64,000 nucleotides of DNA from a virus. Below the pieces are notes generated by a model that was not told where the DNA came from, did not search any database, and saw nothing but the letters and a program-made list of their open reading frames with translations. The position numbers and the translations under genes are program-made. The DNA lies in IMG/VR virus record IMGVR_UViG_3300042516_003202; one strand, 5' to 3'. Position 1 is the stretch's first letter, and each line of letters begins with the position of its first letter. This document shows, piece by piece, positions 9 through 23,589 of the stretch.

Positions 9-239
9 TCATTTTGTCAAAAAATCTCCAAGTTTAGGAATTTCACCACAATAAGAAGTTACTTCTGATGGACTTCTACCTTTGAAAGCAATTCTACACT
101 CCATAGATTTGACATAAGTTTGTTTATACAGATTTTGCTTCTGCATATCAGTATAGAAATACCCAAACACCAAACTAATGATGACGGTAAAACCAAACAT
201 AACACACAGAGCAATCAGTGCTTCATCATTAAATTTCAT
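9..239 (-). CDS. hypothetical protein with N-terminal transmembrane segment
   Basis: 76-aa ORF; hydrophobic LIALCVMFGFTVIISLVFGYF; part of a coupled minus-strand ORF array. Confidence 0.7.
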   Translation of the reverse strand: MKFNDEALIALCVMFGFTVIISLVFGYFYTDMQKQNLYKQTYVKSMECRIAFKGRSPSEVTSYCGEIPKLGDFLTK

Positions 240-252
240 TTGTCAGTCCTCA

Positions 253-453
253 TTAGTTGTTCCATTTATCGTGGGCAATAATCTTACGATAAGTTGTCTC
301 ACTCACAATATCCTTCTCTAACTCAACAACAGAAGCATATTGGAGATAGAGTGCGTATTCATCCTCGTTGAAATTGATTGATGGAATGAGACCTTTGTAT
401 GATAGAAGTGATTTGGTAATCAGTTTTTCTAATTGATAATGGTCGTCAGGCAT
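253..453 (-). CDS. hypothetical protein
   Basis: Start moved from the ORF track (537) to ATG at 453, which follows a GGAGG RBS and overlaps the upstream TGA. Confidence 0.65.
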   Translation of the reverse strand: MPDDHYQLEKLITKSLLSYKGLIPSINFNEDEYALYLQYASVVELEKDIVSETTYRKIIAHDKWNN

Positions 454-8183: not shown

Positions 8184-9410
8184 TCAGCGTCGGATGACGC
8201 TAACGGCAACATCACCTTTTACAAAGATGGTGTCAACCACGTTTTGTACTGCCCGTGCAGTAGCGCCAGATGCCTTGTCAAAGGTGGGGCAGATCACCAG
8301 TCCATAGGATTTGGTGTATGCCTCCAGATTGCCCGCCTGGAGCGCCCCAGAGCGGATTCCAGCGGCATCCTGGGGGTGTAGGCGCAGAGTACGCCCAACC
8401 GTCTGTCCGATCCCCACAACATCCATAGAGCGCATGAATACTACTGCCTCCAGAGCAGAGATGTTGATGCCTTCTGCCAGAATGCTGTGGTGCAGAACCA
8501 CAAACTTCTTATCGGCATCCTTACCCCACTTGTTGATGGTGTCAAAGAAAACCTCACGGTTCACTTGCTGCCCATCAATAAAGGCACCATGCTTGGAAGT
8601 AATGTGCATCACAGAGTAACCCTGCTCTGCCAATTGATCTGCAAAATCAGTTTCAGAAAGCAAACCGATAATGTGCTTGGTTGCTTTGGCACAGATCAGG
8701 ATCTTGTTGACAGGGTGATCTGCAATCGTTTGAAGCAGATACTCGCAATCACGTTGAGCAATATCCTCACCCTTGATGGAGAGGCGCATCTCCTTCATCA
8801 TCACCTTGGGAGGGATGATGTAACCACCTTCTACCAGTTGAGGAGCAGGAACCTTGGCGATGATCTGCCCGTAGACATCAACATCGTTCATGCCAGGTTT
8901 GCCAACCACAGAAGAGTACTTGGGAGTGGCAGTAAAGAAGTAGCAACGCTTTGCCTCTGAAGAGAAATGCTCTACAGCAGGAAAGAAGTGCCGCTTTACA
9001 GAGTTGTGTGCCTCGTCAAAGTAGATCGTATCTACAGCAATATCTGCCTTGGCAAGTTGCTGCAGAGAGTTGTAGGTGGTGAAGATCAGTTTGTGACCCT
9101 CAACATTCTCACACCAGGCACGAATCATGTTCGGGCGAGTGCTGCTGAAGTGATGAGTTTCACCTGTGTGAATGTGCATCACATGAGCATTTGTGATAAA
9201 CTCAAGATACTCACTGGACAACTGCTCTGCCAGAAGGATGCGGGGTGCCACCACTACGATGGTTTGAGGAGTCTCTTTGAGAAACTCCCGAATAGCATCA
9301 AAAATACCAACGTTGGTTTTACCACCGCCAGTAGGGAAAACACAGATGCCCTTGGCAACCTGGCGCAGGGCATCAAGAGCAATCTGTTGATGAGGGCGAA
9401 GTTGGAACAA
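8184..9410 (-). CDS. superfamily 2 DEAH helicase (ResIII-like)
   Basis: LRPHQ Q-motif, PTGGGKT (I), DEAH (II), TAT (III), QTVGRTLR (VI). TTG start at 9410 after a GGAG RBS; the ORF-track ATG at 9467 lies inside the promoter. Confidence 0.9.
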   Translation of the reverse strand: MFQLRPHQQIALDALRQVAKGICVFPTGGGKTNVGIFDAIREFLKETPQTIVVVAPRILLAEQLSSEYLEFITNAHVMHIHTGETHHFSSTRPNMIRAWCENVEGHKLIFTTYNSLQQLAKADIAVDTIYFDEAHNSVKRHFFPAVEHFSSEAKRCYFFTATPKYSSVVGKPGMNDVDVYGQIIAKVPAPQLVEGGYIIPPKVMMKEMRLSIKGEDIAQRDCEYLLQTIADHPVNKILICAKATKHIIGLLSETDFADQLAEQGYSVMHITSKHGAFIDGQQVNREVFFDTINKWGKDADKKFVVLHHSILAEGINISALEAVVFMRSMDVVGIGQTVGRTLRLHPQDAAGIRSGALQAGNLEAYTKSYGLVICPTFDKASGATARAVQNVVDTIFVKGDVAVSVIRR

Positions 9411-9432
9411 GGTCTCCGTTGCGTATGGGACT

Positions 9433-9476
9433 ATTATAGCAGAAAGGGGTCCCCGAAGGAACCCCATGTGCCAGTT
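9433..9476 (-). promoter_or_regulatory. early promoter cassette: AACTGGCAC motif, UUCG hairpin, extended -10 TGcTATAAT
   Basis: AACTGGCAC atGGGGTTCC-TTCG-GGGACCCC tttc TGC TATAAT; motif 29 nt upstream of the -10. Confidence 0.75.
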
Positions 9477-9491
9477 ATGAAATTGGTCTAA

Positions 9492-10805
9492 TCACTGAAA
9501 CTCATTGTGCTGCTCAATCATGTTTGCTTGTGGCAACCATTTGAAGTCAATAGGCTTCAAAGTTCCCTCATCATGTGCTTTGAGAACACGACGATAGTGT
9601 TTGAGCATACGCTTACGTTCACCTTCCATCAACACTCGGAGTTCATCAATGTTGTTTTCTGTAGGAGTAATACTAACACCCTGACCCTGCTCCAAGAAAG
9701 AATAAGCAGTATAGTTGTTGTTAGGATACTCAAGCTGCTTTTCAAAGATGAAATACCACTTACGGTAGTGATCTGGTTTACGCCCCCAACCAACAGCAAA
9801 AGAAGTTTGAGTTTCGTTCATAGAACTAATACGCTCACCGCAAACACCATTGATGCTAAAAACATCTTTCAAAGTTTTTTGTGCTTTTGAAATGTCGTAT
9901 GGTTCAATAGATACTTTGACACCTTCTTCGCCAAGAATTTCAGCAGCAAAAATCCTTCGGTTGTTTTTGCGAACTTCTTTGTATCGGGTTTTCAGTACAT
10001 CAATCACAACGTCAATGTCTTTTGCAATTTTTCCGTATTGAAAACCTTTTTGGATCATGTACTTTACATCATCCTCTGTACAATCATTCTTTTTTTCCCT
10101 GTTGGGAGCATTGGCGATTGCACCATATTGAAGAAGAGAATATTCATCTTCACCAGAAATGATGGCACACGGAAAATACTTCCAAGGAAGTTCAAAGCGA
10201 TTGTTGCCATCACGAACAATGTACTTAAAAGTAAATTCAGAACCATCTTCGTCAACATAATGAATTGGTTCAGAAAGAACTGATACTGCAGGTTGATAAC
10301 AGCGATAATCGTATTCGCCATCAGCAACTTCTTCAGTGATCTGGTCAATTGTTTGCTGAAAAAGTGCCTGACCAACACGAGTTTGGCATTCAATGTTAAG
10401 TTTTCGAGCAATGCTGTGAGACATTACTTCATCTTTGTGAAGAATTGCCCATTTTTCAAAGGTAATTCCAGGAGATTTGTCATAATATCGCCCGTGCTTT
10501 TCCAACTCTTCCAAATCAAAGATATTTTGGTTTGGATCAATGTATCCTTTAGTTTCAATCAAACAATATGTACCTTCAAGATCCATAGAGTCCCTACAGA
10601 ACATCCGTAAAAGTTGATCTGCCTCAAGTCGTTGAATTGCTGCACGAACAGTTGATCGCTCATCAACTACCTCATTGTAAATTTCATCAATCCTGTTTTG
10701 AACAAGAACTAAATCATAAATTTCTTGAAGAGTAAAAACAACTCCAGGAACAAAATTTTCGCGGAGAGTAAGTAGAACGTGTTCTTTGGTTGAAATCATA
10801 ATCAA
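9492..10805 (-). CDS. winged-helix plus ParB/Srx-like domain protein
   Basis: N-terminal FTLQEIY...TVRAAIQRL...GTY resembles the DpnI-type wH; central QTR...QPAV...YIVRDGNNR resembles ParB/Srx boxes. Confidence 0.55.
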   Translation of the reverse strand: MIMISTKEHVLLTLRENFVPGVVFTLQEIYDLVLVQNRIDEIYNEVVDERSTVRAAIQRLEADQLLRMFCRDSMDLEGTYCLIETKGYIDPNQNIFDLEELEKHGRYYDKSPGITFEKWAILHKDEVMSHSIARKLNIECQTRVGQALFQQTIDQITEEVADGEYDYRCYQPAVSVLSEPIHYVDEDGSEFTFKYIVRDGNNRFELPWKYFPCAIISGEDEYSLLQYGAIANAPNREKKNDCTEDDVKYMIQKGFQYGKIAKDIDVVIDVLKTRYKEVRKNNRRIFAAEILGEEGVKVSIEPYDISKAQKTLKDVFSINGVCGERISSMNETQTSFAVGWGRKPDHYRKWYFIFEKQLEYPNNNYTAYSFLEQGQGVSITPTENNIDELRVLMEGERKRMLKHYRRVLKAHDEGTLKPIDFKWLPQANMIEQHNEFQ

Positions 10806-10821: not shown

Positions 10822-10850
10822 AATGTACGATGAATTCACCGCCATGTCAA
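10822..10850 (-). promoter_or_regulatory. sigma70-type promoter
   Basis: TTGACA-N17-TACATT upstream of 9492-10805. Confidence 0.75.
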
Positions 10851-10862
10851 CCCCCCAACCCA

Positions 10863-11264
10863 TTAGAAAAACTTTTCAATACCGATAAGTTCCCCAAATG
10901 AGTAGTCATACTCCAAGGCATCCGCACACACGTAATGGGGGTGGTCTACAGGAACACCAAGACGAGAGCACAATTCCTTATGATTATCTTCCATCATTTC
11001 AACGGCATAGATCATATGATTCAAAACATGTTCTTCTGTATGATATTCACAAAGCCGATTCTTAAGAGCAATCAAAAAATTACCACATCCAGCAGAATTA
11101 TCAATAAAAGTACTGTTCGGATCTTTTAGTATATCAACAGAAATATCATCAATCATACTCTCAACTAGATCCATAGGAGTAAAGACTTCTTGAGTTTCTT
11201 TAATCCTTTCATCAGATCTTTCAATCTCAGATCCAGTTTCAATATTATGCTTGTTCTTTTTCAT
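10863..11264 (-). CDS. amino-methyltransferase, SAM-binding half (motifs X-I-II-III)
   Basis: QEVFTP (X), FIDNSAGCGNFL (I), YAVE (II), ADAL (III); no NPPY motif. Confidence 0.8.
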   Translation of the reverse strand: MKKNKHNIETGSEIERSDERIKETQEVFTPMDLVESMIDDISVDILKDPNSTFIDNSAGCGNFLIALKNRLCEYHTEEHVLNHMIYAVEMMEDNHKELCSRLGVPVDHPHYVCADALEYDYSFGELIGIEKFF

Positions 11265-11835
11265 TCTTCTCTTTCAAACAATTAGTATAAGTTGAAATTA
11301 GATCGTTTTTACCGAAATGCCTTCTACCATTACAACTAGAAGCAACCTCTCTAAATCTCGTAGCAAATTCTAACAGATTTTCTATCACACTAGAATCTCT
11401 AACCTTTAGAAAATGATGTCCTTTAGCGTAATGTGTAAAGTTTTCTGTTTTAACTCTACCACTGGGTCCAGAACCATATTCACCTACAAAAACATCTGCC
11501 TCAAATCTCCTCTCATAAGGAAGAAATTCAAAGTCAGGATGTTCCCTCATCATAGGAATTTCACCTACACCAATTTGAAATCTTGATGTATTTCTAACTT
11601 CCCAGTATTGTTTAACAGCACTAATACCATTTGGGAAAGTAGAAGGATCTAGATCATCATCTACAACACAGTGAAGGTGTGCCTTAATCTTATTTAAAGA
11701 TGATGGTTTACGAACTGATGTAGGTAAGACTGCACGAATATCATCAGTGATCTCGGCAGTCTTATTAAGAAATTTTATAGCAAGGTTTCCACCCACCCCA
11801 TAAGGTGGATTAATAATAGCTAAAGTAAACTTCAT
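11245..11835 (-). CDS. amino-methyltransferase, catalytic/TRD half (motif IV)
   Basis: Starts with LAIINPPY, later AVLP; no SAM-binding motif I. Confidence 0.75.
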   Translation of the reverse strand: MKFTLAIINPPYGVGGNLAIKFLNKTAEITDDIRAVLPTSVRKPSSLNKIKAHLHCVVDDDLDPSTFPNGISAVKQYWEVRNTSRFQIGVGEIPMMREHPDFEFLPYERRFEADVFVGEYGSGPSGRVKTENFTHYAKGHHFLKVRDSSVIENLLEFATRFREVASSCNGRRHFGKNDLISTYTNCLKEKNEKEQA

Positions 11836-11861: not shown

Positions 11862-11890
11862 ATTCTACTGGGATTTGAGGTTCTTGTCAA
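11862..11890 (-). promoter_or_regulatory. sigma70-type promoter
   Basis: TTGACA-N17-TAGAAT upstream of the methyltransferase pair. Confidence 0.8.
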
Positions 11891-11893
11891 GAC

Positions 11894-14800
11894 CTAGTAC
11901 ATATCATACCAAGTAGTTCCATTGTACATTTGGTGTTTATTTACCGTAGTGTTAAATATGAAAGCTCCGGGACGAGTATGTAATCCTACTCTTTGATCAG
12001 AAGTTATTCCTGGTGGAAGCATAAATGCATATTTTGCAGATTCTCCAGTAGATCCTATGCCAACTCCAGCATAGAAAAAGTCAGCTTTACACGTAGGTTC
12101 ATCAGTTCCTATACCAATAGAACCAGAAGAATCAATTTCAATAGTTGATTCATCTACTATACGTATAGAACCTCCGGAAACGACTTGACCCGATTGGTAT
12201 AAAACTATTCCACCATTTCCAACATCATTAGTATTAACTCCAACAGCAATTGCTGGACTAATAATTCCTCCAGCAAGTCCTCCTCCTTGTGTTATAATAT
12301 GTATTGATGCGTTTGGTGAGGTTGTCCCAATTCCAATACCAGATGCTTCTGTTATACTAACAATACCAGTAATAGATAGTTCGTTAAATGTTGATATTCC
12401 AACTTCGGTGAATACATTTCCGTTTAATTGGGTTCCTTCCGCGAGTCTAAGGGTTGTAATTCCAGTAATAACTGTATTCCCATTAACTCTTAAATTACTA
12501 AATGTGGATACTCCTGATGCAAATAATCCATTACCAACATATAAATCTCGAGAAATTGTTACTCCAGTGCCAGTTGCTCCAATTTTTCCATTTACATATA
12601 AATCATTTCCAATATAGGTATCTGAAGTAATTGTGGATGTTCCAACAACATGCAAATTATGCTGCGGTTCATCTTGATTAATTCCCAGTTTTCCATCATA
12701 AGTTAAAGTCATTATCTCGTTACTGAGATAACTATTATTCCATTTAAATGAACCAGTATTAATACCAGCAACTCCACCACTATGAAGATTAAAATTAAAA
12801 CTTCCTACAGTTCTATTTTCAAAAGTAAAATCAGATCCACCAAAAATTAAACGTCCTTGATTAGATAAACTTGAGAGTATTAATGAAGAATTAGAAGTCT
12901 TAGAATCTATTTTAATAGAAACTGTTGATTGATCAACAACTTCCAATTTACTGGATAAAGATGTTGTAGTTCCAATACCAACGTAACTAGAATCAACATA
13001 TAAAGGTCCAGAATATATTTCATTATCAACTATAAGTTGATCTGATATTCTAACTAAACTGGATGTAGATTGTAATATTAATTCTCCTGCGGCGGTATCA
13101 ATTATATTACCACTACCAGAAACTCCTAATCTAATTTTATTAAAATATGCAGATCCAAAAGCTTTTGAAGAACTACCTACTGATCCATTATTATTGGAGA
13201 TTGGTAAAATAGCAGATCCGACAGTTGCTATACCAATTATATTTAAATTATTTGATTCTAAATTACTATTTACAAATAAAGAATTTGTTACAGTTACAAT
13301 ACCAGAAGAAGATGTTAATTGTAATGTATTAGAATTTCTAGTCCCTATTGAATTTGTTCCGGCAACACCTATTGTAACCTCATTAATGTATGCGTTTTCG
13401 AATGCTGTTGCAGCATATCCAATAGATGATCCTTTATCGGAATCTGGAGAAATATTAATATTTACTATAGAATAATCACTATAAAGATTGGGTGCAGTTA
13501 ATATACCAGAAACATTTAAATTACGCTCAGAAATTAAATCTTTAGAAACTAATACTCTTCCAGTAATTGAGTCTAATGTAAGATTTCCAGATCTAGTGCT
13601 TATAATTCCGGCACCAAATGCTCCAATATTAATATTTGCAATATGGGCATTTGCAAATGAAGTTCCAGCAGATCCTAAGTATGATCCACCATCACTATCT
13701 GGAACAACTGAATCATTGATGATAAGATCAGTTAGTGTAGAGATGCCAGTTACTGATAAATTCCTGTTTACAATAAAGTCTTTTACGACAGATACTTTTC
13801 CAGTATTTGAATCAAGACTTAAATCACCAGATCTCGTACTTACAATTCCTGCAGCGTTTGCGACTCCAATTTGAACTTCATCAATATAAGCTTCTGCCAA
13901 TGATTTAGAACTGGAACCCAAATATCCACTATTATCGTTCGTTGGAATAATACCTGTAGTAATATTAACAAGACCAGATAATGTAGAAATTCCAGTTACC
14001 GAAACATTTCTATTTACGATAAAGTCTTTTACGACAGATACTTTTCCAGTATTGGCATCAAGACTTAAATCACCAGATCTTGTGCTGACAATACCAGCAG
14101 CATTTGTGACTCCAATTTGAACTTCATCAATATATGCTTCGGCAAATGATTTTGTAGAAGACCCTAGATAACCATTATTATCATTTGACGGGATAATTCC
14201 GGTAGTTATATTGACAAGACCAGATAAAGTAGAAATACCAGTTACTGAAAGATTTTGCCCTATGCTAAAATCTCTTACAACAGATACTCTTCTGCTGTTA
14301 GCATCAAGACTTAAATCACCAGATCTTGTACTAACAATACCAGCAGCATTTGCAACACCAATTTGGACTTCATCAATATATGCTTCGGCAAATGATTTTG
14401 TAGAAGATCCTAAACTTGCAGAAAGATCAGTGTTTGGATTTAAACTTCCACTAATATTAATTGAACTGTTAAAGGTAGAAATACCACTAAATGTAGAGTT
14501 TCTAGATACTGAAAGATCTTTAGAAATTGAAACAGTTCCAGTATTTGAATCAAGACTTAAAGCTCCAGATCTTGTACTTACAATTCCTGCGGCGTTTGCA
14601 ACTCCAATTTGGACTTCATCAATATACGCTTCAGCAAATGATTTTGCAGAAGATCCTAGATAACCACTATTATTAGAATCTGGAACTATACCAGTTGCAG
14701 ATGTTACTATGCCTGCTAGATAAGAATTGCCAGAAACATAAAGATTATTTGATACTTCTATTTTTGTTCCTGCAGAACCTAAAAATAAATCTCCAGAATT

Positions 14801-15982
14801 TGTTTCTATTTTATTAGAAACATCATTTATTCTAATATTTCCTGAATGTAGTTTGGAAATAGTTCCAACACCAGAAGCGTTAATATTTGTAGAATTTACA
14901 AATCCTGCGGTAGTTACACCAATATTCGAATATGTTGAATTTAAAGAATTTGTTGTAATAATACCAGAATTAACTTGCGTTAATTGTGATGCGAAAGAAT
15001 TTGTTCTAAAAACATTTAATGTAGTAACAATTCCAGTATTAGTAACTCTAAGATTTGATGTTGTTGTGAATCCAGATGAAAAAATATCATTAGCAGTAAG
15101 AATACCAACAGTAACAATTCCTGATACTGAAATATCACTAGACCAATTAACTCCATTAGATCCATTTGAAACTAAAAACTGACCAGGATTTCCATTACTA
15201 CCTGCAATGGAAACTCTTGCTCCTCCAGAAAATGTTAAATCACTTGAATTAATTTCGAATCCATTTGATGCATAGAATGACCCACCAGTAAATGATGATC
15301 CCGTAACATTTCTGCTGAATAAACCATTACTATTAAAAGTAACTACACCAATATATGCTCTAGTTGCTGTCAGGGTTCCTACTGTTGCGATGCCTGATGG
15401 CAAATTAATGTTATTTGGTAATCTTGCATTATCTAAAGTTCCTGAAGAAATATTAGATGCATTTATGTTGGTAATATTTGTACCACTTCCATCAAAAGAA
15501 CCTGCGGTTATAATTCCAGATGCTCTAATATTTCCAGTAGAATTAATACCAACACCAATTTGTCCAAGTTCAGTTCTTCCCCCTATTTGCAAAGTTTGAG
15601 TTGGAATATTGGTTGCAATTCCAACTCTATTTCTAAGAATATAAGAACTTGTAATTCCAGGCTGATTATAGTCTACCCATTGATTGGTTGGTATTCCATC
15701 TAAATACGAACCGTCTCCATAATATCTCGTCGCACTTATTATTCCAGAGTCGGTCATCGTAATATATGAACCAACCCTCAAATCAACAAAAGAAGCGATT
15801 CCTGAGATAATCATCGCTTTCATGGTTGATAAACCAGAAACAGAGATATCTCCGTATACGTCAAGATTAGTTCTAGGAATAGTCGTTCCTATACCAACAA
15901 GTCCATTAGCATTTACGAAAAAGTTATCCTCATCAACTTGAACACCATTCCTAAAACTAAATGACTTATTATAATTTGCCAT
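11894..15982 (-). CDS. tail fibre / virion structural protein with internal 82-aa repeats
   Basis: 1362 aa; recurring GLVGIGTT and TGISTL fibre motifs; tandem YLGSS.KSFAEAYIDEVQIG repeats. Confidence 0.8.
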   Translation of the reverse strand: MANYNKSFSFRNGVQVDEDNFFVNANGLVGIGTTIPRTNLDVYGDISVSGLSTMKAMIISGIASFVDLRVGSYITMTDSGIISATRYYGDGSYLDGIPTNQWVDYNQPGITSSYILRNRVGIATNIPTQTLQIGGRTELGQIGVGINSTGNIRASGIITAGSFDGSGTNITNINASNISSGTLDNARLPNNINLPSGIATVGTLTATRAYIGVVTFNSNGLFSRNVTGSSFTGGSFYASNGFEINSSDLTFSGGARVSIAGSNGNPGQFLVSNGSNGVNWSSDISVSGIVTVGILTANDIFSSGFTTTSNLRVTNTGIVTTLNVFRTNSFASQLTQVNSGIITTNSLNSTYSNIGVTTAGFVNSTNINASGVGTISKLHSGNIRINDVSNKIETNSGDLFLGSAGTKIEVSNNLYVSGNSYLAGIVTSATGIVPDSNNSGYLGSSAKSFAEAYIDEVQIGVANAAGIVSTRSGALSLDSNTGTVSISKDLSVSRNSTFSGISTFNSSINISGSLNPNTDLSASLGSSTKSFAEAYIDEVQIGVANAAGIVSTRSGDLSLDANSRRVSVVRDFSIGQNLSVTGISTLSGLVNITTGIIPSNDNNGYLGSSTKSFAEAYIDEVQIGVTNAAGIVSTRSGDLSLDANTGKVSVVKDFIVNRNVSVTGISTLSGLVNITTGIIPTNDNSGYLGSSSKSLAEAYIDEVQIGVANAAGIVSTRSGDLSLDSNTGKVSVVKDFIVNRNLSVTGISTLTDLIINDSVVPDSDGGSYLGSAGTSFANAHIANINIGAFGAGIISTRSGNLTLDSITGRVLVSKDLISERNLNVSGILTAPNLYSDYSIVNINISPDSDKGSSIGYAATAFENAYINEVTIGVAGTNSIGTRNSNTLQLTSSSGIVTVTNSLFVNSNLESNNLNIIGIATVGSAILPISNNNGSVGSSSKAFGSAYFNKIRLGVSGSGNIIDTAAGELILQSTSSLVRISDQLIVDNEIYSGPLYVDSSYVGIGTTTSLSSKLEVVDQSTVSIKIDSKTSNSSLILSSLSNQGRLIFGGSDFTFENRTVGSFNFNLHSGGVAGINTGSFKWNNSYLSNEIMTLTYDGKLGINQDEPQHNLHVVGTSTITSDTYIGNDLYVNGKIGATGTGVTISRDLYVGNGLFASGVSTFSNLRVNGNTVITGITTLRLAEGTQLNGNVFTEVGISTFNELSITGIVSITEASGIGIGTTSPNASIHIITQGGGLAGGIISPAIAVGVNTNDVGNGGIVLYQSGQVVSGGSIRIVDESTIEIDSSGSIGIGTDEPTCKADFFYAGVGIGSTGESAKYAFMLPPGITSDQRVGLHTRPGAFIFNTTVNKHQMYNGTTWYDMY
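13130..14720 (-). repeat. about seven tandem 81-85-codon repeats, four spaced exactly 246 nt apart
   Basis: Anchor positions 14638, 14392, 14146, 13900 (246-nt steps), then 13657, 13402 and about 13159. Confidence 0.85.
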
Positions 15983-15999: not shown

Positions 16000-18900
16000 T
16001 TATTTATCTGATAACTTTTGCTCAAGTTTTTCTACCTTATCTGCAAGTTCTTTAATAGCTTCAATAAGTAAAGGAACTATTTTTTCATACTTAACAGTTA
16101 AGTAATCATTATTTGCTGGAGCAGGAGAAACTGCCTCTGGAAGAACTGCTTGAATCTGCTGTGCCGAAACACCAACATGTGTTGTTTCAGTGCTGAAACC
16201 AAGTGTAGCACCAATCTCATTAAAGTTATATGTAAATCCACTGAGAGACAGAACTTTTTCAAGAGCATTTTCAAGTGGTTTGATATTGGTTTTAAGTCTT
16301 TCATCAGAAGCAAATGCAACAATATCTCCAGTAACAGACAACTCGTTTGAAGAAGCATCAAAGTACAAACCACTGTCGCTATAGAAAGACTTATTTCCAC
16401 CATTTGTAGTTTCTGTTAATGCAATACGATATGTTCCACTATCTGAGGAAGAATTCACATAAAGTTTAGTCGCAGTATCAGCATTACCAGTTACATTACC
16501 AGTTACATTACCAGTTAGGTTTCCAGTAACACCTCCACTAGCAGTAATTCTTCCACTAACATTAAGAGTTGATGCTAAAACAACTGCTCCTGCAAGATTT
16601 AAATTTCCACCAACATAAAGATTTTTAGCAACTCCTAAACCACCAGAAACTGTTAATGCACCTGTTGATGTGCTAGATGATTCTGTAGTATTTGAAATTG
16701 CAAGAGTTCCAGATACTGCCAAGTTAGCAATAGTTGTAGTTCCAAGTACAGTAAGATTTCCTGTAGTATAAATTGCACCATCAGTGGTCTGGATATAAGC
16801 TTTTTCAGTATTGTCTGCTCTACGAATAGATAATTTTTGACTATCCCCTCTCAAAATTATAGAAGAATCATATACTGTAGTGGTTCCAGTAACATCCAAA
16901 GCAGATTCAATTCTAACCAAATTGGTAGAAGAATCTAAAATTAAGTTTTGACTATTGTAAGTTGTAATTCTATTATCTTGAGTATCGTCTGCAATTCTAA
17001 TATATCCAATAAATGCTTCAGCAAAAGGTCTTGTAGAAGATCCTAACTTAGTGCCTAAAGAAGCGTATGGTAGAATGTCACTTTCAACGGTTGTTACTCC
17101 TTTAAGATATGATGTTCCATCAACGTTTAAAGTCCCATCAACATCTAAATTATCCTGAACATTTACAGTTCCTGATGTTGAATCAAGTAGTAAGTTTCCA
17201 CTTGAAGTATCAATCTTATTATCTGCAGCAACTCCAATACGAACATCATCAATTGTTGCTCCACCATTAGCATCAAGAAGACCTGTTAATGTTGTTTGGC
17301 CAGTAACAGATAAGGTAGATCCTAAAGTTGTTGCTCCATCAGAATTTAACGTTCCATCAACATCTAAATTATCTTGAACGTTTACAGTTCCTGATGCAGA
17401 ATCTAAAATTAAAGATGTTGAATTTTTTGTATCAATTACGTTTGTTCCAGTAACACCAATTCTAACATTCTTTAATGATCCTCCAGAAACAGAATCAATT
17501 ACTGCATTGAATGTAGCAGTATCTAGTGAAGAATCTCCTAAAACTATGTCACCTTTTAGATTGGTAATTGCATTAACTGTTAAATTAGATTCGAATGTTG
17601 CAGCATCTTTTACTTTTAGAGAATCATAGATATAAACTTCATCTACACCACTGATAAGACGTAATTGAGTTGATGCAGTATCAATTGTATTATCATCAGA
17701 AACTCCAATACGTATATTTTTAATAATTGCACCGCCATTAATGTCTAACAATCCAGCAACTGTTAAGTCGCCGTCAACATTAGCATTAAAATCTATATCT
17801 ATGTTTGCTGCAACTCTAACATTATTGGTATTAGAATCTAAAACTAAATCTCCAGATGCAGTGTCTATAGTTGTTGCTGCAGTAGCACCTATTCTAATTT
17901 CATCAATATATGCTGCAGAGAATTTCTTAGTTGAAGATCCAATAGTAGAGTTTGATGAAGTTGTTGTTGTATGTGGAACCAAGTTTGACTGAATAGCAGT
18001 TTCTCCAGTCAAATATGTTGTTCCATCTACGTTTAGATTATTATTAACATCTAAATCGTCATCAACTATAACAGTACCTGCTGAAGAATCTAGAACTAAA
18101 CTTCCAGATGCAGTATCTATTGTTCTTTCACCAATAACAGCAATTTTAATTTCATCAATATATGCTGCAGAAAATTTCTTAGATGAAGTTCCAATAGTTG
18201 AGTTTAATGAAGATGTTGTTGTATGTGGAACCAAATTTGATTGAAGTGTAGTTTCTCCAGTCAAATATGTTGTTCCGTCTACATTTAAATTGTTGTTAAT
18301 ATCTAAATCATCATCAACTACTACAGTACCTGCAGAAGAGTCTAATGTTAAATTGCCAGATCTAGTATCAATTTCACCTCCTCCACTTGCACCTATTCTA
18401 ATTTCATCAATATATGCTTCGGAGAATGATTTATCTAATGAACCAATGTATGCACCTTCATTTTCATCAGGAAGTAATCCAGTTACAACTGTAGTAATTC
18501 CAAGTAAATTAGTTTGCCCATTAATAGTTAATGCCTGATTAACTATTAAATGATCGTCTACAATAACATTTGTTGATGCGGTTTGTGTTTTTAAAATTAA
18601 ATCACCAGTCCAAGAATTTATTGTTCTATCTTGTATTTCAGTTCCTCCGGGAGTACCTTCAGTTGCAATTCCAATTCCACCGAACCATCCAGATGCCCAA
18701 GGTCTCTCAGCAGATCCAATATAAGCATCTTCAATAGAATCTGGAACAAGACCAGTATTAAATTGAACTTGTCCATTAAATGTTGCGGTTCCTGAAATAC
18801 TTACATTACCACCAATATTAACATTCTTTGCAATACCAAAACCACCTCTAGCAATAACAGATCCTGTAGTAGTGCTTGTCGAATCTGTAGTATTATTTAA

Positions 18901-21900
18901 TTTTAAGATGCTGGAAAGAATTAACTCACCATTCATCTTAGTTTGTCTATTATTAATAATGATATTTTCGTTGAATGTAACAGGACCATCAAATTGAGAA
19001 AGAATTTGTTTTGATTTTCCACCTTCTACAAGAATTCTTTCTTTAATAATTGCTTCATCAAATACCACACTCAATCTAGAAGGATCTTGTCCAGTAACTG
19101 TTGGGATTGGAATATCAAAAGTTAATTGTTCACCCGAAGATGAAGCATATTTCGTATTTCCAATGAAGAAATCACCATCACTATTCATTCCGGTATAAAG
19201 TGCGGATCCTCCAGATCTTTCTTGTGATTGTGCAAGAAAATCTTCTCTTTCTGTTAAAGTTTTAACTTGAATTTGTGGAAGACCAGTTGAGTAGTTACCA
19301 GGACCATATCCAAGGTATTCAAACGTATGACCAGATGCTCTTAAAATAGATGGTCTTCTAATTTCAATTGGAATTGGAGATATTTTCTTAATTATTGCAC
19401 CTGCATAGTGATTTTCTTTTGCGGTTCCAAAATATCCCCTAATTGCTGTGATTTTATTATTTCCAGATCCAGTTAAAGTGCTACTGGAAACTCTCATAAT
19501 TTCACTATCTATTTGAATATAAGAACCTAATTCAAATCTAGTGGTAGTAGAAATACCAGAATTTCTAACAGTTATTGCAAAAGTTGAAGTTTCTGAAGTA
19601 TCTGTAATAATATTTTCTTCAAGAGTTGCTTGTTCATTTGCATAGAAATGCATTCCTCTTGATCCTACATTTTCCGATCCAGCATCTGATGTTAAATCAT
19701 TAGAATTAAATCCGTGCTTAAGAACTCTAACAGTTCCAGAAAATGTTCTATTTGTTAATGCTGTAAATGTATTGACACCTACAACATCTCTAACTAAATA
19801 ATCTCCAAAATTATTAGATGCTGAGAAAGAATCATTTAAAACTCTAAATTTATTTCCTGCAACTAATCCATGACCGTGTTGGAATGTAAATGTGCATATT
19901 CCAGTAGCACTGGAATACTGAATATTAGATGTTGACGTTGATGGGCCAACATTCATAACATACTGTCCAATAATTATATTTGGATCTCCAGAAGTTTTTG
20001 CAATAGCAATTTGATTCTTGGCAGGAATATCATATACTCTTAATAAATTATCGGATGCAGTTCCAATACCAGTAATTTGTACAGAGTTGTTTCTGCAAAT
20101 AGATATTGATCTTTCAGAAATTGTAATAGATGCACCAGAAAATCCTTCTAAATCTAAGGTTTGACCAGATACATATCCAGATCCACCATCCATAATTTTT
20201 AAGGATGATATTGATCCCGATGAAACTGTTACTTGAGCCGTTGCTCCATTCCAAGATGTATTTGCGTTTAACAATCTAACATTATAATAAGTTCCATTTG
20301 GTAGACCAGATCCTGCAGTTAAAGTGTCATATCCAACAATAGAATTTAATCCGTGCTCAGTATTAAGAGTTATAGTACAAATTCCAGCAGATATGGCAGA
20401 AACGGTATCAATTTTGAAACCTTTACCAAAATCTTTAATGAATGTGTCCATAGCTTCCCTGGTCACACTCTTCTTCAAATCATTTGTTATAACTTCTCCA
20501 AGTGGAGAAACTTTTGCATATGAATATGAGGAACTTGGGTTATCGTCAATATTATCTCTATCTTGTTGAGGATATAAATCAACTACGTTTTGATTATATT
20601 TGTAATCATTGAAATGATTAGGAACAGAAACATCAGATTTTAATACATAAGCATGATATATTCCATCTTGCGCATTAAAGATATATGGTGATATTGTTTC
20701 TACGCGATAGATGTAAAAATTAGATTGTAAATCATTTCTTTCAAATCTAGGCAAATAAATGTCTCTAGTTGTTGGACCAGAGAAGATACCTACATTATGA
20801 TAATTACCGTTATAGTCTGTTCTAGAATAGGTAAATGACTTATTATTAACAATACTTGATACTATAAAATCACCATTAAATCCTGTTAAACCGACTCCTG
20901 TTAAATTAGTTGAAGATTTGACATTTTTTACTAAAACTCTATCACCAACTTTAAGATTATGAGGACGCTCTGAAACTACTGTTACTGAAGAAGAATCAAA
21001 AGAACATGTACTAATAAATCTTGGATTTCTATTATAATCAAAATTATTTGCAGTAATATTTGTCAAATTAAAATCAGAATTGTTTATTTGACCTGTTTTA
21101 CTACTTTCTTGAATTACAAATCCTTCCGAAGGATTTCTTGCATTTGGACACTCTTTAGGTATAGCAATTCTTACTTTATATAATCTTTCGTCCAAACTTC
21201 TGTTGTCTGGATAACGTTTAATATATGTTACATCAGTTCTAGGTTCATCAAATCCAACCACTCCTAAAGACCAAAGGCTTTGGTATATTGTATTATTTGG
21301 TTGTACATGGACAAACCAATTTGAACGATTTGGATCATATTGTATAGGAGATCCTAAATCTCCACTTTCTTTATCAGAAACTCTACTTAAAACTTTAAGT
21401 GAAGATCCTCCATACATTTTAATACCAACACCATTTACAGCGTTAGTAAAAGATGTTGCAACTTTAAGACCAGTTATAAAATTACCACTACCAACACGAA
21501 TTGCATAATATATTTTATTTGGAGTAATATTTTCTGGTAAATCTCCAACATTACTTAAAATAAGAATTTTTTCACCAGTTTGTATTTCATGATTTGTATC
21601 AGTGTACATGGTATCATATAGGGGCGCAGAAGTTATCTGTGCAATTCTATATTCTTTTAATCCTGTGTCAGATCCATCAATATATGTTAAACCAGAACCA
21701 ACTGTGTTGTTGGTCATCAAAATTCTAGCATCTTTTTCAGTGCCATCTGGTAATGTCAGATATAATACATCATCTACTTTTGCTCCAACTCTATATCCTT
21801 GAATTAGACCTGGTGGAACGTTATCTACACTATTAAAACCAAACAAATAAAGGTGACTGGATATGCCAACAGCGGTAGTTAAACCAACATCAATGGAAAT

Positions 21901-23589
21901 CCAATCAACGTTTTGCTCATTAGTTGTAATTGATTTTGGTGTAATTAAAGAAGTTATATAACCATAATTATCTTTAGAGAATGCTTCTTTTTTAAATCCT
22001 TCAGCATTTAGTGAAAATTGACCAAAATTAGAGTTTGAGTTTGTGATTGACTGGTCTCCGCCAGATTGTGCATCAAAATGCTTGTTAAATCCAATCGCAA
22101 AAACAGAAACTACCTGGATGATAGAATCATTTGAACATTTGATGTGAGTAGTTTCCCATCCTCTTCTATAAACGGCATCACTATCTAAGTGATATACTGT
22201 ATCACTATTTGTCGATGATGCTCCAGATGATAAAGAAGAACCGTATACTTTTTCAATAGGTATTCCTGTATACGATCTAGTTACTGGATTGTATTTTACA
22301 AATGCACGATCATCTTTTTGGAGAGAAACTGCAGTGTATTGTGCAACAACCATTGAACGGAATCCAGATGCTTTTGCACCATCCGCGTGCATTCCATTCA
22401 ATCCCCAAACCGATCTTAAAGAGCAGTTGAAAATATAAGGAGATGCTCCTCTAACTGTATCAGTATCAATAGTAACAGTAGCAGATCCTCCAGGATCTGC
22501 AGGAAGATCATTTCTTACTGCTCTAAGAGTATATGTAAACGTAGTTGGTGTTGGAACTGATTGAACTACTGTAGAAACATTATAATCACTTACATTGACC
22601 CCTTTAATCTTAATTGGAGTATCAACTGTGAGATTGTGTGGAACTAATGTGGTTACGGTGACAACAGAGTTTGGAGTTGCACCATCTCCAGAATAGATTG
22701 AAGTAATTTGTACTGGGTCAGTTCCAAATGCACCAACTATTTCCCATTCACTTCTTTCTTTTGCAAAACCTTCAGGTAATAATGGGAATTTTTGTGCTGC
22801 TGGAACTTGACGAGTTGATCCTTCATTAAAGGCATTTGATAATTTGGCATAATACATGTCCAAATCAGTTAGTTCATAATTATTTGGAACATTTACACCA
22901 TCTACATATTCAAATACTGTTAATTTATGGTGTGAAAATGTAGGAATTGCTTGGTTGCCTGATCCAAGATCAAAAATAGAATTATCTGTATATACTAATT
23001 GATTTTGATCTGCATCAAATAAGGAAAAATTCCAGAAAAAACAATTACCAGTAATTCTGAAAAATGAAGATGAAGGGACGTTATTATCAGTTGGATTTGG
23101 AACATATTTTGGTCTTATTTTTGTCTTTCTTAAATCCAATCCAATTAGTGATGTTCCTCTTGGCAGAATAACTCCACCATTTATACTATTAAATTTGTAT
23201 AGAATATTATCTTCTTGAGTTAAATCAAAATTACTCTGTAAATTTAAATTAAATACATCAGATGCTGGAGTCGTAACTGTACCTGATGGTGATACTGCTT
23301 GGGCAAGAGCGGTGCCAACTTTACGAATTCCAAAACCAGGTCTGTTATCAATAAGATGTTCCCCTGGATATACTAAGATAGTGGTTCTGTCATTCCTATC
23401 ATTATTTTCTCCAGGAACAAAAGAAAATCTTGCTGCTTCTAAAAGAGCTCTTTGAATAGTTTTAAATGGTTTAGTAAGAGAATTACCTTGATTGGTAATG
23501 CTATCTGTTGCATCTAAATCGTTTGAATTTACATATAGAATTCTACCTTCATAATTCTTGATAAAATTCTCTAACTTATTAAGAGGCAT
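16000..23589 (-). CDS. giant tail fibre/virion structural protein with C-terminal peptidase S74 chaperone
   Basis: 2529 aa; cyanophage-type N-terminus MPLNKLENFIKN...PFKTIQRAL; C-terminal SDERLKTNI...GVSAQ...VKYEKIVPLLIEAIKEL. Confidence 0.85.
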   Translation of the reverse strand: MPLNKLENFIKNYEGRILYVNSNDLDATDSITNQGNSLTKPFKTIQRALLEAARFSFVPGENNDRNDRTTILVYPGEHLIDNRPGFGIRKVGTALAQAVSPSGTVTTPASDVFNLNLQSNFDLTQEDNILYKFNSINGGVILPRGTSLIGLDLRKTKIRPKYVPNPTDNNVPSSSFFRITGNCFFWNFSLFDADQNQLVYTDNSIFDLGSGNQAIPTFSHHKLTVFEYVDGVNVPNNYELTDLDMYYAKLSNAFNEGSTRQVPAAQKFPLLPEGFAKERSEWEIVGAFGTDPVQITSIYSGDGATPNSVVTVTTLVPHNLTVDTPIKIKGVNVSDYNVSTVVQSVPTPTTFTYTLRAVRNDLPADPGGSATVTIDTDTVRGASPYIFNCSLRSVWGLNGMHADGAKASGFRSMVVAQYTAVSLQKDDRAFVKYNPVTRSYTGIPIEKVYGSSLSSGASSTNSDTVYHLDSDAVYRRGWETTHIKCSNDSIIQVVSVFAIGFNKHFDAQSGGDQSITNSNSNFGQFSLNAEGFKKEAFSKDNYGYITSLITPKSITTNEQNVDWISIDVGLTTAVGISSHLYLFGFNSVDNVPPGLIQGYRVGAKVDDVLYLTLPDGTEKDARILMTNNTVGSGLTYIDGSDTGLKEYRIAQITSAPLYDTMYTDTNHEIQTGEKILILSNVGDLPENITPNKIYYAIRVGSGNFITGLKVATSFTNAVNGVGIKMYGGSSLKVLSRVSDKESGDLGSPIQYDPNRSNWFVHVQPNNTIYQSLWSLGVVGFDEPRTDVTYIKRYPDNRSLDERLYKVRIAIPKECPNARNPSEGFVIQESSKTGQINNSDFNLTNITANNFDYNRNPRFISTCSFDSSSVTVVSERPHNLKVGDRVLVKNVKSSTNLTGVGLTGFNGDFIVSSIVNNKSFTYSRTDYNGNYHNVGIFSGPTTRDIYLPRFERNDLQSNFYIYRVETISPYIFNAQDGIYHAYVLKSDVSVPNHFNDYKYNQNVVDLYPQQDRDNIDDNPSSSYSYAKVSPLGEVITNDLKKSVTREAMDTFIKDFGKGFKIDTVSAISAGICTITLNTEHGLNSIVGYDTLTAGSGLPNGTYYNVRLLNANTSWNGATAQVTVSSGSISSLKIMDGGSGYVSGQTLDLEGFSGASITISERSISICRNNSVQITGIGTASDNLLRVYDIPAKNQIAIAKTSGDPNIIIGQYVMNVGPSTSTSNIQYSSATGICTFTFQHGHGLVAGNKFRVLNDSFSASNNFGDYLVRDVVGVNTFTALTNRTFSGTVRVLKHGFNSNDLTSDAGSENVGSRGMHFYANEQATLEENIITDTSETSTFAITVRNSGISTTTRFELGSYIQIDSEIMRVSSSTLTGSGNNKITAIRGYFGTAKENHYAGAIIKKISPIPIEIRRPSILRASGHTFEYLGYGPGNYSTGLPQIQVKTLTEREDFLAQSQERSGGSALYTGMNSDGDFFIGNTKYASSSGEQLTFDIPIPTVTGQDPSRLSVVFDEAIIKERILVEGGKSKQILSQFDGPVTFNENIIINNRQTKMNGELILSSILKLNNTTDSTSTTTGSVIARGGFGIAKNVNIGGNVSISGTATFNGQVQFNTGLVPDSIEDAYIGSAERPWASGWFGGIGIATEGTPGGTEIQDRTINSWTGDLILKTQTASTNVIVDDHLIVNQALTINGQTNLLGITTVVTGLLPDENEGAYIGSLDKSFSEAYIDEIRIGASGGGEIDTRSGNLTLDSSAGTVVVDDDLDINNNLNVDGTTYLTGETTLQSNLVPHTTTSSLNSTIGTSSKKFSAAYIDEIKIAVIGERTIDTASGSLVLDSSAGTVIVDDDLDVNNNLNVDGTTYLTGETAIQSNLVPHTTTTSSNSTIGSSTKKFSAAYIDEIRIGATAATTIDTASGDLVLDSNTNNVRVAANIDIDFNANVDGDLTVAGLLDINGGAIIKNIRIGVSDDNTIDTASTQLRLISGVDEVYIYDSLKVKDAATFESNLTVNAITNLKGDIVLGDSSLDTATFNAVIDSVSGGSLKNVRIGVTGTNVIDTKNSTSLILDSASGTVNVQDNLDVDGTLNSDGATTLGSTLSVTGQTTLTGLLDANGGATIDDVRIGVAADNKIDTSSGNLLLDSTSGTVNVQDNLDVDGTLNVDGTSYLKGVTTVESDILPYASLGTKLGSSTRPFAEAFIGYIRIADDTQDNRITTYNSQNLILDSSTNLVRIESALDVTGTTTVYDSSIILRGDSQKLSIRRADNTEKAYIQTTDGAIYTTGNLTVLGTTTIANLAVSGTLAISNTTESSSTSTGALTVSGGLGVAKNLYVGGNLNLAGAVVLASTLNVSGRITASGGVTGNLTGNVTGNVTGNADTATKLYVNSSSDSGTYRIALTETTNGGNKSFYSDSGLYFDASSNELSVTGDIVAFASDERLKTNIKPLENALEKVLSLSGFTYNFNEIGATLGFSTETTHVGVSAQQIQAVLPEAVSPAPANNDYLTVKYEKIVPLLIEAIKELADKVEKLEQKLSDK
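16001..16007 (-). promoter_or_regulatory. T4-type late promoter
   Basis: ATAAATA about 19 nt upstream of the ATG at 15982. Confidence 0.65.

What the first reader, a model, noticed from the sequence alone, without database searches (positions are those of the whole stretch)
9492..10805. DpnI-type winged helix fused to a ParB/Srx-like domain: a possible methyl-adenine reader-effector
Seen: N-terminal FTLQEIY...STVRAAIQRLE...GTY and central QTR...QPAV...VRDGNNR. Known: the DpnI C-terminal winged helix (F(T/S)L...Y...IRQQLQ.LRD...G.Y pattern) binds Gm6ATC, and ParB/Srx folds act as NTPases or nucleases. Inference: a phage protein that distinguishes methylated from unmethylated DNA and acts through the ParB-like domain.
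Basis: inference. Interest (0 to 1): 0.75.

Follow-up and report, generated by a model that had tools for sequence, protein, structure and literature searches.

The report
Methylase-linked winged-helix ParB-like phage protein
A marine cyanophage gene encodes a three-part DNA-binding protein (a DpnI-type winged helix, a ParB-type nucleotide-binding switch and a C-terminal domain with no known relative) that sits beside a DNA adenine methylase in every relative found. This suggests an undescribed accessory that works on methyl-marked DNA; its activity is untested.

Summary

At sequence level both assignments fall below curated thresholds. The DpnI_C link has three kinds of support: recurrent weak Pfam hits in relatives, one outside hit to a true DpnI_C protein, and P-SSM2 gp038.

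The new evidence is context. In all 20 related loci and in the window, the gene adjoins a (D/N)PP(Y/F) DNA methyltransferase, drawn from five unrelated kinds. It is often wedged between a putative PD-(D/E)XK nuclease and the methylase. Close relatives of these methylases also occur without it. The neighbouring helicase is a core cyanophage gene, not a partner.

Most likely reading: an NTP-gated DNA binder acting downstream of the m6A mark. Methyl reading, NTP binding and any nuclease activity remain untested.

The parts
9492..10805 (-). Coding sequence of the three-domain protein. It is 437 aa from the TTG at 10805, but the likely true start is the ATG at 10799 (435 aa). The stop codon is at 9492-9494.
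10545..10799 (-). N-terminal winged helix, residues 3-87. It is DpnI_C-like but below the Pfam threshold. The recognition helix ERSTVRAAIQRLEA lies at 10620-10661.
10095..10472 (-). ParB/Srx-type nucleotide-binding domain, residues 112-237. Invariant motifs are QTR (10377-10385), QPAV, VRDGNNR (DGNNR at 10197-10211), FPC, and N232 followed by P234.
   Evidence: Fold matches to ParB, KorB, Noc and PadC. Invariant columns. Coordinates checked.
9918..10094 (-). Helical domain, residues 238-296. It aligns with the region that follows the nucleotide-binding domain in KorB and pNOB8 ParB, which by my background knowledge is their DNA-binding HTH region.
   Evidence: Model helices at 244-256, 264-274 and 280-293. 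KorB 8qa9_B aligns over 118..295 and 5k5d_B over 112..296.
9495..9917 (-). C-terminal alpha/beta domain, residues 297-437, with no recognisable structural relative. Invariant residues across the broad family are N385, R390, Q426, N428 and E431.
10822..10850 (-). Sigma-70-like promoter directly upstream of the gene: TTGACA, 17 nt spacer, TACATT. A TTGACA/TTGATA element at the same place is kept in most related loci.
   Evidence: consensus match and conservation only; not shown to be functional
10863..11835 (-). Companion split adenine-type DNA methyltransferase, encoded as two overlapping ORFs. ORF 11245-11835 carries NPPY at residue 9. ORF 10863-11264 carries the AdoMet motif DNSAGCG.
   Evidence: earlier scan note e1-5859569
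9437..9465 (-). Terminator-like GC hairpin with a T-rich tail, 27 nt after the stop codon. It overlaps the first codons of the long helicase ORF.
   Evidence: pattern match only

Best explanation
The gene encodes an early-expressed, phage-specific DNA-binding switch made of four parts: (1) an optional DpnI_C-type winged helix; (2) a divergent ParB-type nucleotide-binding domain that keeps counterparts of the ParB phosphate-binding residues (Q141-x-R143, G200-x-x-R203, N232); (3) a ParB/KorB-like helical domain; and (4) a new C-terminal alpha/beta domain.

It works downstream of the m6A mark written by the methyltransferase encoded next to it. It binds DNA through the winged helix and/or the helical domain, in a way that depends on the methylation state. 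It uses NTP binding to switch or clamp on that DNA, and acts through the conserved C-terminal domain.

What is shown: the folds, the conserved residues, the strict methylase adjacency, and the asymmetry (methylases occur without it, it never occurs without a methylase). What is inferred: methyl-dependent binding, NTP binding, clamp or switch behaviour, and the output activity.
For: Folds.

Motifs: the order Q-x-R ... QPxV ... (I/V)xxGxxR ... FPC ... N matches ParB box I/II/III. These residues are invariant even in relatives of only 25-30% identity. In M. xanthus ParB the residues that bind and hydrolyse CTP are Q52, R54, E93, R95 and N127 (PMC13229309).

Context: 20 of 20 related loci, plus the window, have an adjacent (D/N)PP(Y/F) methyltransferase. 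These come from five kinds that are unrelated by BLAST: split Eco57I-like, PF01555 beta-class, Dam-like, small gamma-class, and a 326-aa Eco57I-like form.

Asymmetry: S-SKS1 carries the same putative nuclease and methylase (81% and 72% identical) with nothing between them. The split methylase occurs in 66 phage records, against 8 records for this protein.

DpnI_C link: 8 of 32 relatives hit PF17726 at 14-21 bits, and 4 more do so. The only hit outside the family among 5.8e9 proteins carries a true DpnI_C domain.

Independent recurrence: P-SSM2 gp038 occupies the same slot after the same split methylase. It has a DpnI_C-like winged helix at its C-terminus (hhalign prob 87%, P 3.8e-6) and an N-terminal LPPIVL...LVNGNHRW ParB/Srx-like pattern.

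Precedents: DpnI-type wH domains sense m6A (PMC11037411, PMC3424567). ParB folds are fused to methylases in phages (PMC12704722). A ParB-like protein activates a phage DNA dioxygenase (PMC13229309).

Expression: a conserved early-type promoter lies directly upstream.
Against: No Pfam, NCBIfam or PADLOC model reaches threshold on the window protein.

The winged-helix profile against PDB sequences puts DpnI (E 0.22) level with MntR (E 0.05), which is noise. Structurally, DpnI is tied with histone H1.

Only R54 and Q58 of the five DpnI methyl-pocket residues seem kept. In the L010 group even the arginine is replaced by Leu.

The recognition helix differs between loci whose methylases are 76-81% identical. 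That is not what is expected if it reads that methylase's site.

Short forms lack the winged helix.

The counterpart of ParB's catalytic Glu is Asn (or Arg in distant members), so NTP hydrolysis may be absent.

The box I/II/III equivalences rest on motif order and secondary structure, not on a residue-level superposition.
Confidence: 0.4

Rival explanations
1. It is a transcription regulator of the methylase or R-M cassette, analogous to a C protein, DndB or KorB. It would bind an operator through its winged helix or HTH and use NTP, and perhaps operator methylation, to time methylase expression against nuclease expression.
Against: I saw no obvious conserved operator-like palindrome when reading the upstream regions by eye; this was not a formal search. 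A 140-residue C-terminal domain with invariant polar residues is not explained. There is no HMM match to DndB. Divergence of 29-78% beside methylases that stay 76-81% identical would require rapid regulator-operator turnover.
Confidence: 0.2
2. It is the restriction-like effector of a phage-borne R-M system. A ParB-fold or C-terminal-domain nuclease, or another DNA-damaging activity, acts on unmethylated DNA, and the neighbouring methylase protects the phage's own DNA.
For: The protein never occurs without a methylase, while methylases occur alone. That is the classic dependence of a restriction enzyme on its methylase. In the window, in L004-L008 and in L019 no other nuclease candidate adjoins the methylase.
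Against: In 12 loci a separate PD-(D/E)XK candidate already fills the R role, and the same R-M pair exists without this gene. No nuclease motif or nuclease fold was found in any domain. A DpnI-type winged helix binds methylated, not unmethylated, DNA (PMC3424567).
Confidence: 0.15
3. It is a loader or activator of the methyltransferase: a free-standing version of the phage ParB-methylase fusions, or of the ParB-like activator of phage thymine dioxygenases. It would raise or direct methylation of phage DNA.
For: ParB folds fused to N6_N4 and other methylase families are enriched in phages (PMC12704722). A ParB-like protein is required by one subclass of phage DNA dioxygenases (PMC13229309). The gene is translationally coupled to the PF01555 methylase.
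Against: Close orthologues of the same methylases (72-81% identical) occur without it. Five unrelated methylase families would each need their own protein contact.
Confidence: 0.15

Closest known systems
DpnI C-terminal winged helix (Pfam PF17726 DpnI_C) and the wH-nuclease fusion type IV enzymes (FcyTI, HhiV4I and others; PMC11037411, PMC3424567, PMC4117772)
   Different: Scores fall below the Pfam threshold, and the window protein does not hit at all. Only 2 of the 5 methyl-pocket/GATC residues seem kept. The fusion partner is a ParB-type domain rather than a PD-(D/E)XK, HNH, GIY-YIG or PLD nuclease or a McrB NTPase; 'ParB' does not occur in that survey. The gene always adjoins a methylase, whereas those enzymes rarely do.
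ParB-CTPase fold proteins (chromosomal ParB, Noc, KorB, PadC, pNOB8 ParB)
   Same: The nucleotide-binding-domain fold superposes at 2.2-2.4 A over about 92 residues. The following helical domain aligns with KorB and pNOB8 ParB. Counterparts of box I (QxR), box II (GxxR) and box III (N) are invariant.
   Different: There is no HMM-level similarity. Box II reads DGNNR (GRHR in distant members) instead of GERR, so the catalytic Glu is missing. There is an extra N-terminal winged helix. The C-terminal dimerisation domain is replaced by an unrelated alpha/beta domain. No parA gene was seen among the neighbouring genes examined, and no ParA-binding motif was recognised.
Phage ParB-methyltransferase fusion proteins (ParB_N + N6_N4_Mtase and others; PMC12704722)
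   Same: A ParB fold combined with DNA methylases of several families, in phages.
   Different: Here the two are separate genes, and the ParB-like protein carries two further domains. It was invisible to that Pfam-based survey because PF02195 does not detect it. 'Winged' does not occur in that paper.
ParB-like activators of phage thymine dioxygenases (5mYOX-associated ParB; PMC13229309)
   Same: A phage ParB-fold protein encoded beside a post-replicative DNA-modifying enzyme. It is optional across the enzyme family.
   Different: The partner is a methyltransferase, not a dioxygenase. Those activators keep the ParB C-terminal dimerisation domain and lack a DNA-binding domain. This protein has a winged helix and a helical domain, and a different C-terminus.
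DndB (DGQHR) and GmrSD/DUF262 (DGQQR) branches of the ParB/Srx superfamily
   Same: A D-G-x-x-R box II variant (DGNNR, NGRHR) and a preceding Q-x-R. These proteins are linked to DNA-modification or modification-sensing systems. The DGQHR and DGQQR motif forms are recalled from memory.
   Different: No match to PF14072 or PF03235, even at E 10 in the phage's own genome. The C-terminal domain is different.
Prochlorococcus phage P-SSM2/P-SSM5 gp038 (PSSM2_038, 462 aa, hypothetical)
   Same: It sits in the same slot, between the same split methylase and the core helicase. It carries a DpnI_C-like winged helix and a ParB/Srx-like NGNHR pattern.
   Different: The domain order is reversed, with the winged helix at the C-terminus. 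The middle part has no detectable similarity. It was not folded here.

Membership tests
DpnI_C winged helix (Pfam PF17726) | Winged-helix fold (three helices and a three-stranded sheet) that superposes on DpnI residues 183-254 | tested here: met
DpnI_C winged helix (Pfam PF17726) | Score above the Pfam gathering threshold (23 bits) | tested here: not met
   The window protein has no hit. Relatives score 14-21 bits, with best E 3.1e-4. Supporting but indirect evidence: the only outside hit of the wH profile is a protein with a true DpnI_C domain (E 1.2e-28), and hhalign to it gives P 1.5e-4.
DpnI_C winged helix (Pfam PF17726) | Recognition-helix residues that form the methyl pockets and read Gm6ATC in DpnI (E228, K229, R231, Q232, Q235; PMC3424567) | tested here: not met
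   Mapped through the KIRQQLQ helix of a true DpnI_C domain, the window has S51, T52, R54, A55, Q58, so 2 of 5 are kept. The L010 group has Leu at the R231 position. The mapping is indirect, because DpnI itself was not aligned residue by residue.
DpnI_C winged helix (Pfam PF17726) | Preferential binding of fully m6A-methylated DNA | not testable with these tools
   This needs EMSA or filter binding with methylated and unmethylated duplexes.
ParB/Srx (ParB-CTPase) fold, Pfam PF02195 | [quoted passage not shown] | tested here: met
ParB/Srx (ParB-CTPase) fold, Pfam PF02195 | HMM match to ParB_N | tested here: not met
   No match in Pfam scans of the protein or of its 32 relatives. No match in the phage's own genome at E<=10. 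The family profile finds no ParB among PDB sequences.
ParB/Srx (ParB-CTPase) fold, Pfam PF02195 | Phosphate-binding and hydrolysis residues: box I Q-x-R, box II G-E-R-R, box III N | tested here: inconclusive
   Q141, R143, G200, R203 and N232 are invariant or nearly so, and lie in the right order relative to the strands and helices. The box II Glu is replaced by Asn or Arg. No residue-level superposition was available.
ParB/Srx (ParB-CTPase) fold, Pfam PF02195 | Binding of CTP, ATP or GTP | not testable with these tools
   This needs DRaCALA or ITC with an R203A control.
Canonical partition ParB | C-terminal dimerisation domain, and a parA partner gene with a ParA-binding motif | tested here: not met
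DndB / GmrSD_N (DUF262) | HMM match to PF14072 or PF03235 | tested here: not met
   No match at E<=10 in the phage's own genome. The resemblance is limited to the D-G-x-x-R motif.
Component of a type II-like R-M cassette | Encoded directly beside a DNA methyltransferase, with or without a restriction nuclease gene | tested here: met
   20 of 20 related loci, plus the window. In 12 loci it lies between a PD-(D/E)XK-motif ORF and a PF01555 methylase. The nuclease nature of that ORF is inferred only from the invariant E...PD...DIECK motif.
Component of a type II-like R-M cassette | A recognisable nuclease active site in this protein | tested here: inconclusive
   No nuclease family or fold was detected. 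A new active site in the C-terminal domain cannot be excluded.

The most novel reading that the evidence does not exclude
The methyl marks written by the phage's own adenine methylase may act as loading sites, in effect an 'epigenetic parS', for an NTP-gated ParB-type clamp. A DpnI-type winged helix would read the m6A site, the ParB domain would close on the DNA, and the new C-terminal domain would deliver an output such as shielding methylated DNA from m6A-dependent host nucleases or marking DNA as self. This would be a writer-reader-clamp system, a kind not described before.
Probability: 0.12. Interest if true: 0.85.

Novelty: new variant of a known kind. Interest (0 to 1): 0.6.

Why it matters
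ParB-type nucleotide switches are now known to do far more than segregate chromosomes, and DpnI-type winged helices are known m6A sensors. The two surveys that define these fields mention no combination of them. This family is also invisible to the Pfam models those surveys used.

The family gives a compact test case with culturable relatives (Synechococcus phages ACG-2014i/e; the P-SSM2 analogue). The question it can test is how a ParB-fold switch is coupled to DNA methylation.

The pattern is notable: the gene is always beside an adenine methylase of any family, is often wedged inside a conserved nuclease-methylase pair, and evolves much faster than that pair. This points to a role in phage-host or phage-phage conflict over methyl marks in marine cyanobacteria.

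If methyl-dependent loading were shown, it would be a new way to couple an epigenetic mark to a DNA clamp.

Tried and rejected
**Helicase as a partner: rejected.**
- The SF2 helicase at 8184..9467 has homologues in 458 phage records, mostly cyanomyoviruses that lack this gene.
- It lies up- or downstream at varying distance.
- It is absent from the ACG-2014i locus. The adjacency is therefore synteny with a core gene.

**Complex prediction.**
- The second job (window target with both methylase halves) gave score 0.00, with the verdict 'no answer'. It is not used as evidence either way.

**Sequence searches that found nothing.**
- PDB with the single protein and with the family profile.
- NCBIfam.
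- PADLOC: only BrxA at E 0.011.
- ParB_N, GmrSD_N and DndB HMMs in the phage's own genome.
- PDB with the nuclease-like ORF profile.

**Winged-helix profile against PDB.** DpnI scored E 0.22, no better than MntR at E 0.05.

**C-terminal domain.** No fold match.

**Other negatives.**
- S-CAM4 gp217, at the equivalent position, is not a homologue.
- No relatives were found in 185,579 prokaryote species genomes by the pattern scan.
- P0076 gave none in viral contigs.
- Alignment A5 was too divergent to scan with.
- No paper holds both 'ParB' and 'DpnI-like'.

Full report
**1. What is there**

Homologues begin M(I/V)STKEH, so the ATG at 10799 is the likely start.

The window is part of a 178-kb IMG/VR virus record. 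Its closest named relatives are T4-like cyanomyoviruses.

The protein has no hit above threshold in Pfam or NCBIfam, and only a marginal PADLOC hit (BrxA, E 0.011). It falls in PHROG 33124, a family of unknown function that covers residues 94-433 only.

The family is rare:
- 62 clusters among 5.8e9 proteins;
- 25 of 1.84e9 representative proteins;
- 8 of 50,697 phage records;
- none found in 185,579 prokaryote species genomes by the pattern scan.

The alignment shows that residues 1-90 or so are present only in the long forms (414-451 aa). Short forms of about 342-371 aa lack this part. The core holds 35 invariant columns.

**2. Structure**

AlphaFold2 with the family alignment gives mean pLDDT 87.9.

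*ParB-type domain, residues 112-296.* These match ParB-family proteins:

|---|---|---|---|
| 8qa9_B | KorB | 9.2 | 136 residues aligned |
| 6sdk_B | B. subtilis ParB-CDP | 8.6 | rmsd 2.2 A |
| 7bnk_B | M. xanthus ParB | 8.4 | |
| 5k5d_B | pNOB8 ParB-N | 8.4 | 152 residues aligned |

Noc heads the Foldseek list (E 2.2e-3, prob 1.00).

Read against the model's strands and helices, the family's invariant motifs follow the ParB order:
- Q141-T-R143 corresponds to box I (QPR);
- Q171-P-A-V corresponds to LQPIxV;
- V-R-D-G200-N-N-R203 corresponds to box II (GERR);
- F-P-C;
- N232 corresponds to box III.

Q, R, R and N stay invariant even in relatives of 25-30% identity, where box II reads NGRHR. In M. 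xanthus ParB the counterparts Q52, R54, R95 and N127 bind CTP or help hydrolyse it, together with E93 (PMC13229309). Here the Glu position holds Asn or Arg. I therefore infer a kept nucleotide pocket but uncertain hydrolysis. This mapping is by motif order, not by superposition.

**3. Is the winged helix 'DpnI-type'?**

Evidence for:
- PF17726 DpnI_C is the Pfam family hit by the most relatives: 8 of 32, and 4 of 6 further ones. All score 14-21 bits, below the 23-bit threshold.
- A profile of the winged helix searched against longer proteins found its own family plus one outsider, P0088. This is a kinase with a true DpnI_C domain (E 1.2e-28). hhalign to that domain gives P 1.5e-4.

Evidence against:
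- The window protein itself does not hit the Pfam model.
- Against PDB sequences, DpnI (E 0.22) is no better than MntR.

DpnI's methyl pockets and GATC contacts use E228, K229, R231, Q232 and Q235 (PMC3424567). Mapped through P0088's KIRQQLQ helix, the window has S, T, R, A, Q. Other subgroups vary further.

I conclude that the domain is probably a divergent relative of the DpnI_C clade. Its specificity, and whether it senses methylation, cannot be read from the sequence. The survey of such domains notes that only about 10% carry the GATC/m6A motif (PMC11037411).

**4. Context, the main new evidence**

I examined eighteen loci from viral contigs and two from named phages. In every one, and in the window, the gene adjoins a DNA methyltransferase with a (D/N)PP(Y/F) motif IV. 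By background knowledge this motif is typical of N6-adenine enzymes.

The methylases fall into five groups that are unrelated by BLAST:

| Methylase kind | Position | Loci |
|---|---|---|
| Split Eco57I-like pair | upstream | window, L004-L008 |
| PF01555 beta-class, overlapping the stop codon by about 14 nt | downstream | L002, L009-L016, L018, L023/24 |
| Dam-like | downstream | L017 |
| 210-aa gamma-class | upstream | L019 |
| 326-aa Eco57I-like | downstream | ACG-2014i/e |

In the twelve PF01555 loci the upstream gene is an ORF of about 180 aa with invariant E...PD...DIECK. That is a PD-(D/E)XK signature, inferred from the motif only. In ACG-2014i the upstream gene is annotated as a type II restriction endonuclease.

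Synechococcus phage S-SKS1 has the same nuclease-like gene (81% identical) overlapping the same methylase (72% identical), with nothing between them. The split methylase occurs in 66 phage records. In two of them that I examined, S-CAM7 and ACG-2014f, no such gene follows it.

The dependence is therefore one-way. This protein always has a methylase beside it, but the methylases do not need this protein.

Across the PF01555 loci the flanking genes stay 65-81% identical. The middle gene ranges from 78% down to 29% identity, or is a short form.

**5. An independent recurrence**

In Prochlorococcus phages P-SSM2 and P-SSM5, the slot between the same split methylase and the helicase holds gp038 (462 aa). 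It is not detectable as a homologue by BLAST.

Its C-terminal 60 residues align to this family's winged helix (hhalign prob 87%, P 3.8e-6) and weakly to DpnI_C (E 0.014). Its N-terminus shows LPPIVL...LVNGNHRW, a ParB/Srx-like pattern (hhalign P 0.003).

If confirmed by a fold, the same two modules have been joined twice, in opposite order, beside the same methylase.

**6. What is not part of it**

The SF2 helicase at 8184..9467 was proposed as a 'motor' in other first-stage notes. It is a near-universal cyanomyovirus gene, found in 458 phage records. Its position relative to this gene varies. I treat the adjacency as synteny.

A terminator-like hairpin follows the stop codon. A TTGACA-N17-TAnnnT promoter-like element lies directly upstream and is kept across the different locus layouts. 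This suggests an early gene with its own promoter. In the PF01555 loci that promoter would also drive the methylase.

**7. Explanation and rivals**

The best-supported reading (about 0.4) is an NTP-gated, ParB-type DNA-binding switch that acts downstream of the m6A mark laid by its neighbour. The arguments are:
- the one-way dependence on a methylase;
- indifference to which methylase family writes the mark, which fits a link through the DNA product better than a link through protein contacts;
- a winged helix from the clade known to sense m6A;
- a conserved nucleotide pocket;
- fast evolution, as expected for a conflict gene.

The rivals are:
- a DndB/KorB/C-protein-like regulator of the cassette (0.2);
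- a restriction-like effector protected by the methylase (0.15);
- a methylase loader or activator, as in phage ParB-methylase fusions and the ParB-dependent dioxygenases (0.15; PMC12704722, PMC13229309).

A DpnI-like enzyme that attacks methylated DNA is unlikely, because such enzymes avoid methylase neighbours (PMC11037411).

**8. Novelty**

Both folds are known, and ParB folds in phage DNA-modification loci are known. What is new:
- the combination of a DpnI_C-like winged helix, a ParB switch and an unmatched C-terminal domain;
- its strict pairing with adenine methylases of any family;
- its insertion inside a conserved nuclease-methylase pair.

The two relevant surveys do not mention it. 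I class it as a new variant of a known kind.

All functional statements remain inference until binding, NTP and nuclease assays are done.

Noticed in passing
L025:3544-4929 (Prochlorococcus phage P-SSM2 gp038; also P-SSM5): A 462-aa hypothetical protein sits in the same slot, after the same split methylase and before the helicase. It has a DpnI_C-like winged helix at its C-terminus and a ParB/Srx-like LVNGNHRW pattern at its N-terminus. This looks like a domain-swapped analogue of the finding.
   Followed up: partly
L010:2247-2780 and L010:4078-4971; L021:2501-3932 (Synechococcus phage S-SKS1): A compact R-M-like pair is conserved in several cyanomyoviruses. It consists of an ORF of about 180 aa with invariant E...PD...DIECK (PHROG 18119, unannotated) and a DPPY beta-class PF01555 methylase. 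In S-SKS1 the two genes overlap directly.
   Followed up: partly
window 10863-11835 (-): An adenine methylase is encoded as two overlapping ORFs in permuted order: the NPPY half first, the AdoMet-binding half second. The split is kept in L004-L008, and the small half occurs in 66 phage records, including Aeromonas and Prevotella phages. An earlier scan note (e1-5859569) already covers this.
   Followed up: partly
window 8184-9467 (-): The core SF2 helicase region has about 46% G+C, against 33-36% around it. Homologues align only from residue 18-23 of the 427-aa ORF, and a GC hairpin covers its first codons, so the annotated start may be too far upstream.
   Followed up: no
P0088 (metagenome protein, 674 aa): A Ser/Thr protein kinase with two matched DpnI_C stretches upstream of the kinase domain. 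It may be a methyl-DNA-sensing kinase.
   Followed up: no
window 10822-10850 and 11862-11890 (-); same place in L004-L008, L010-L018: Near-consensus TTGACA-N17-TAnnnT elements lie directly upstream of the gene and of the methylase. The stop codon of the upstream gene is often embedded in the -35 box.
   Followed up: partly
window 11894-15982 and 16000-23589 (-): Two very large ORFs (1362 and 2529 aa). The first has internally repeated segments (recurring 'SFAEAYIDEVQIGV...') and resembles fibre proteins. They lie directly upstream of the methylase cassette.
   Followed up: no
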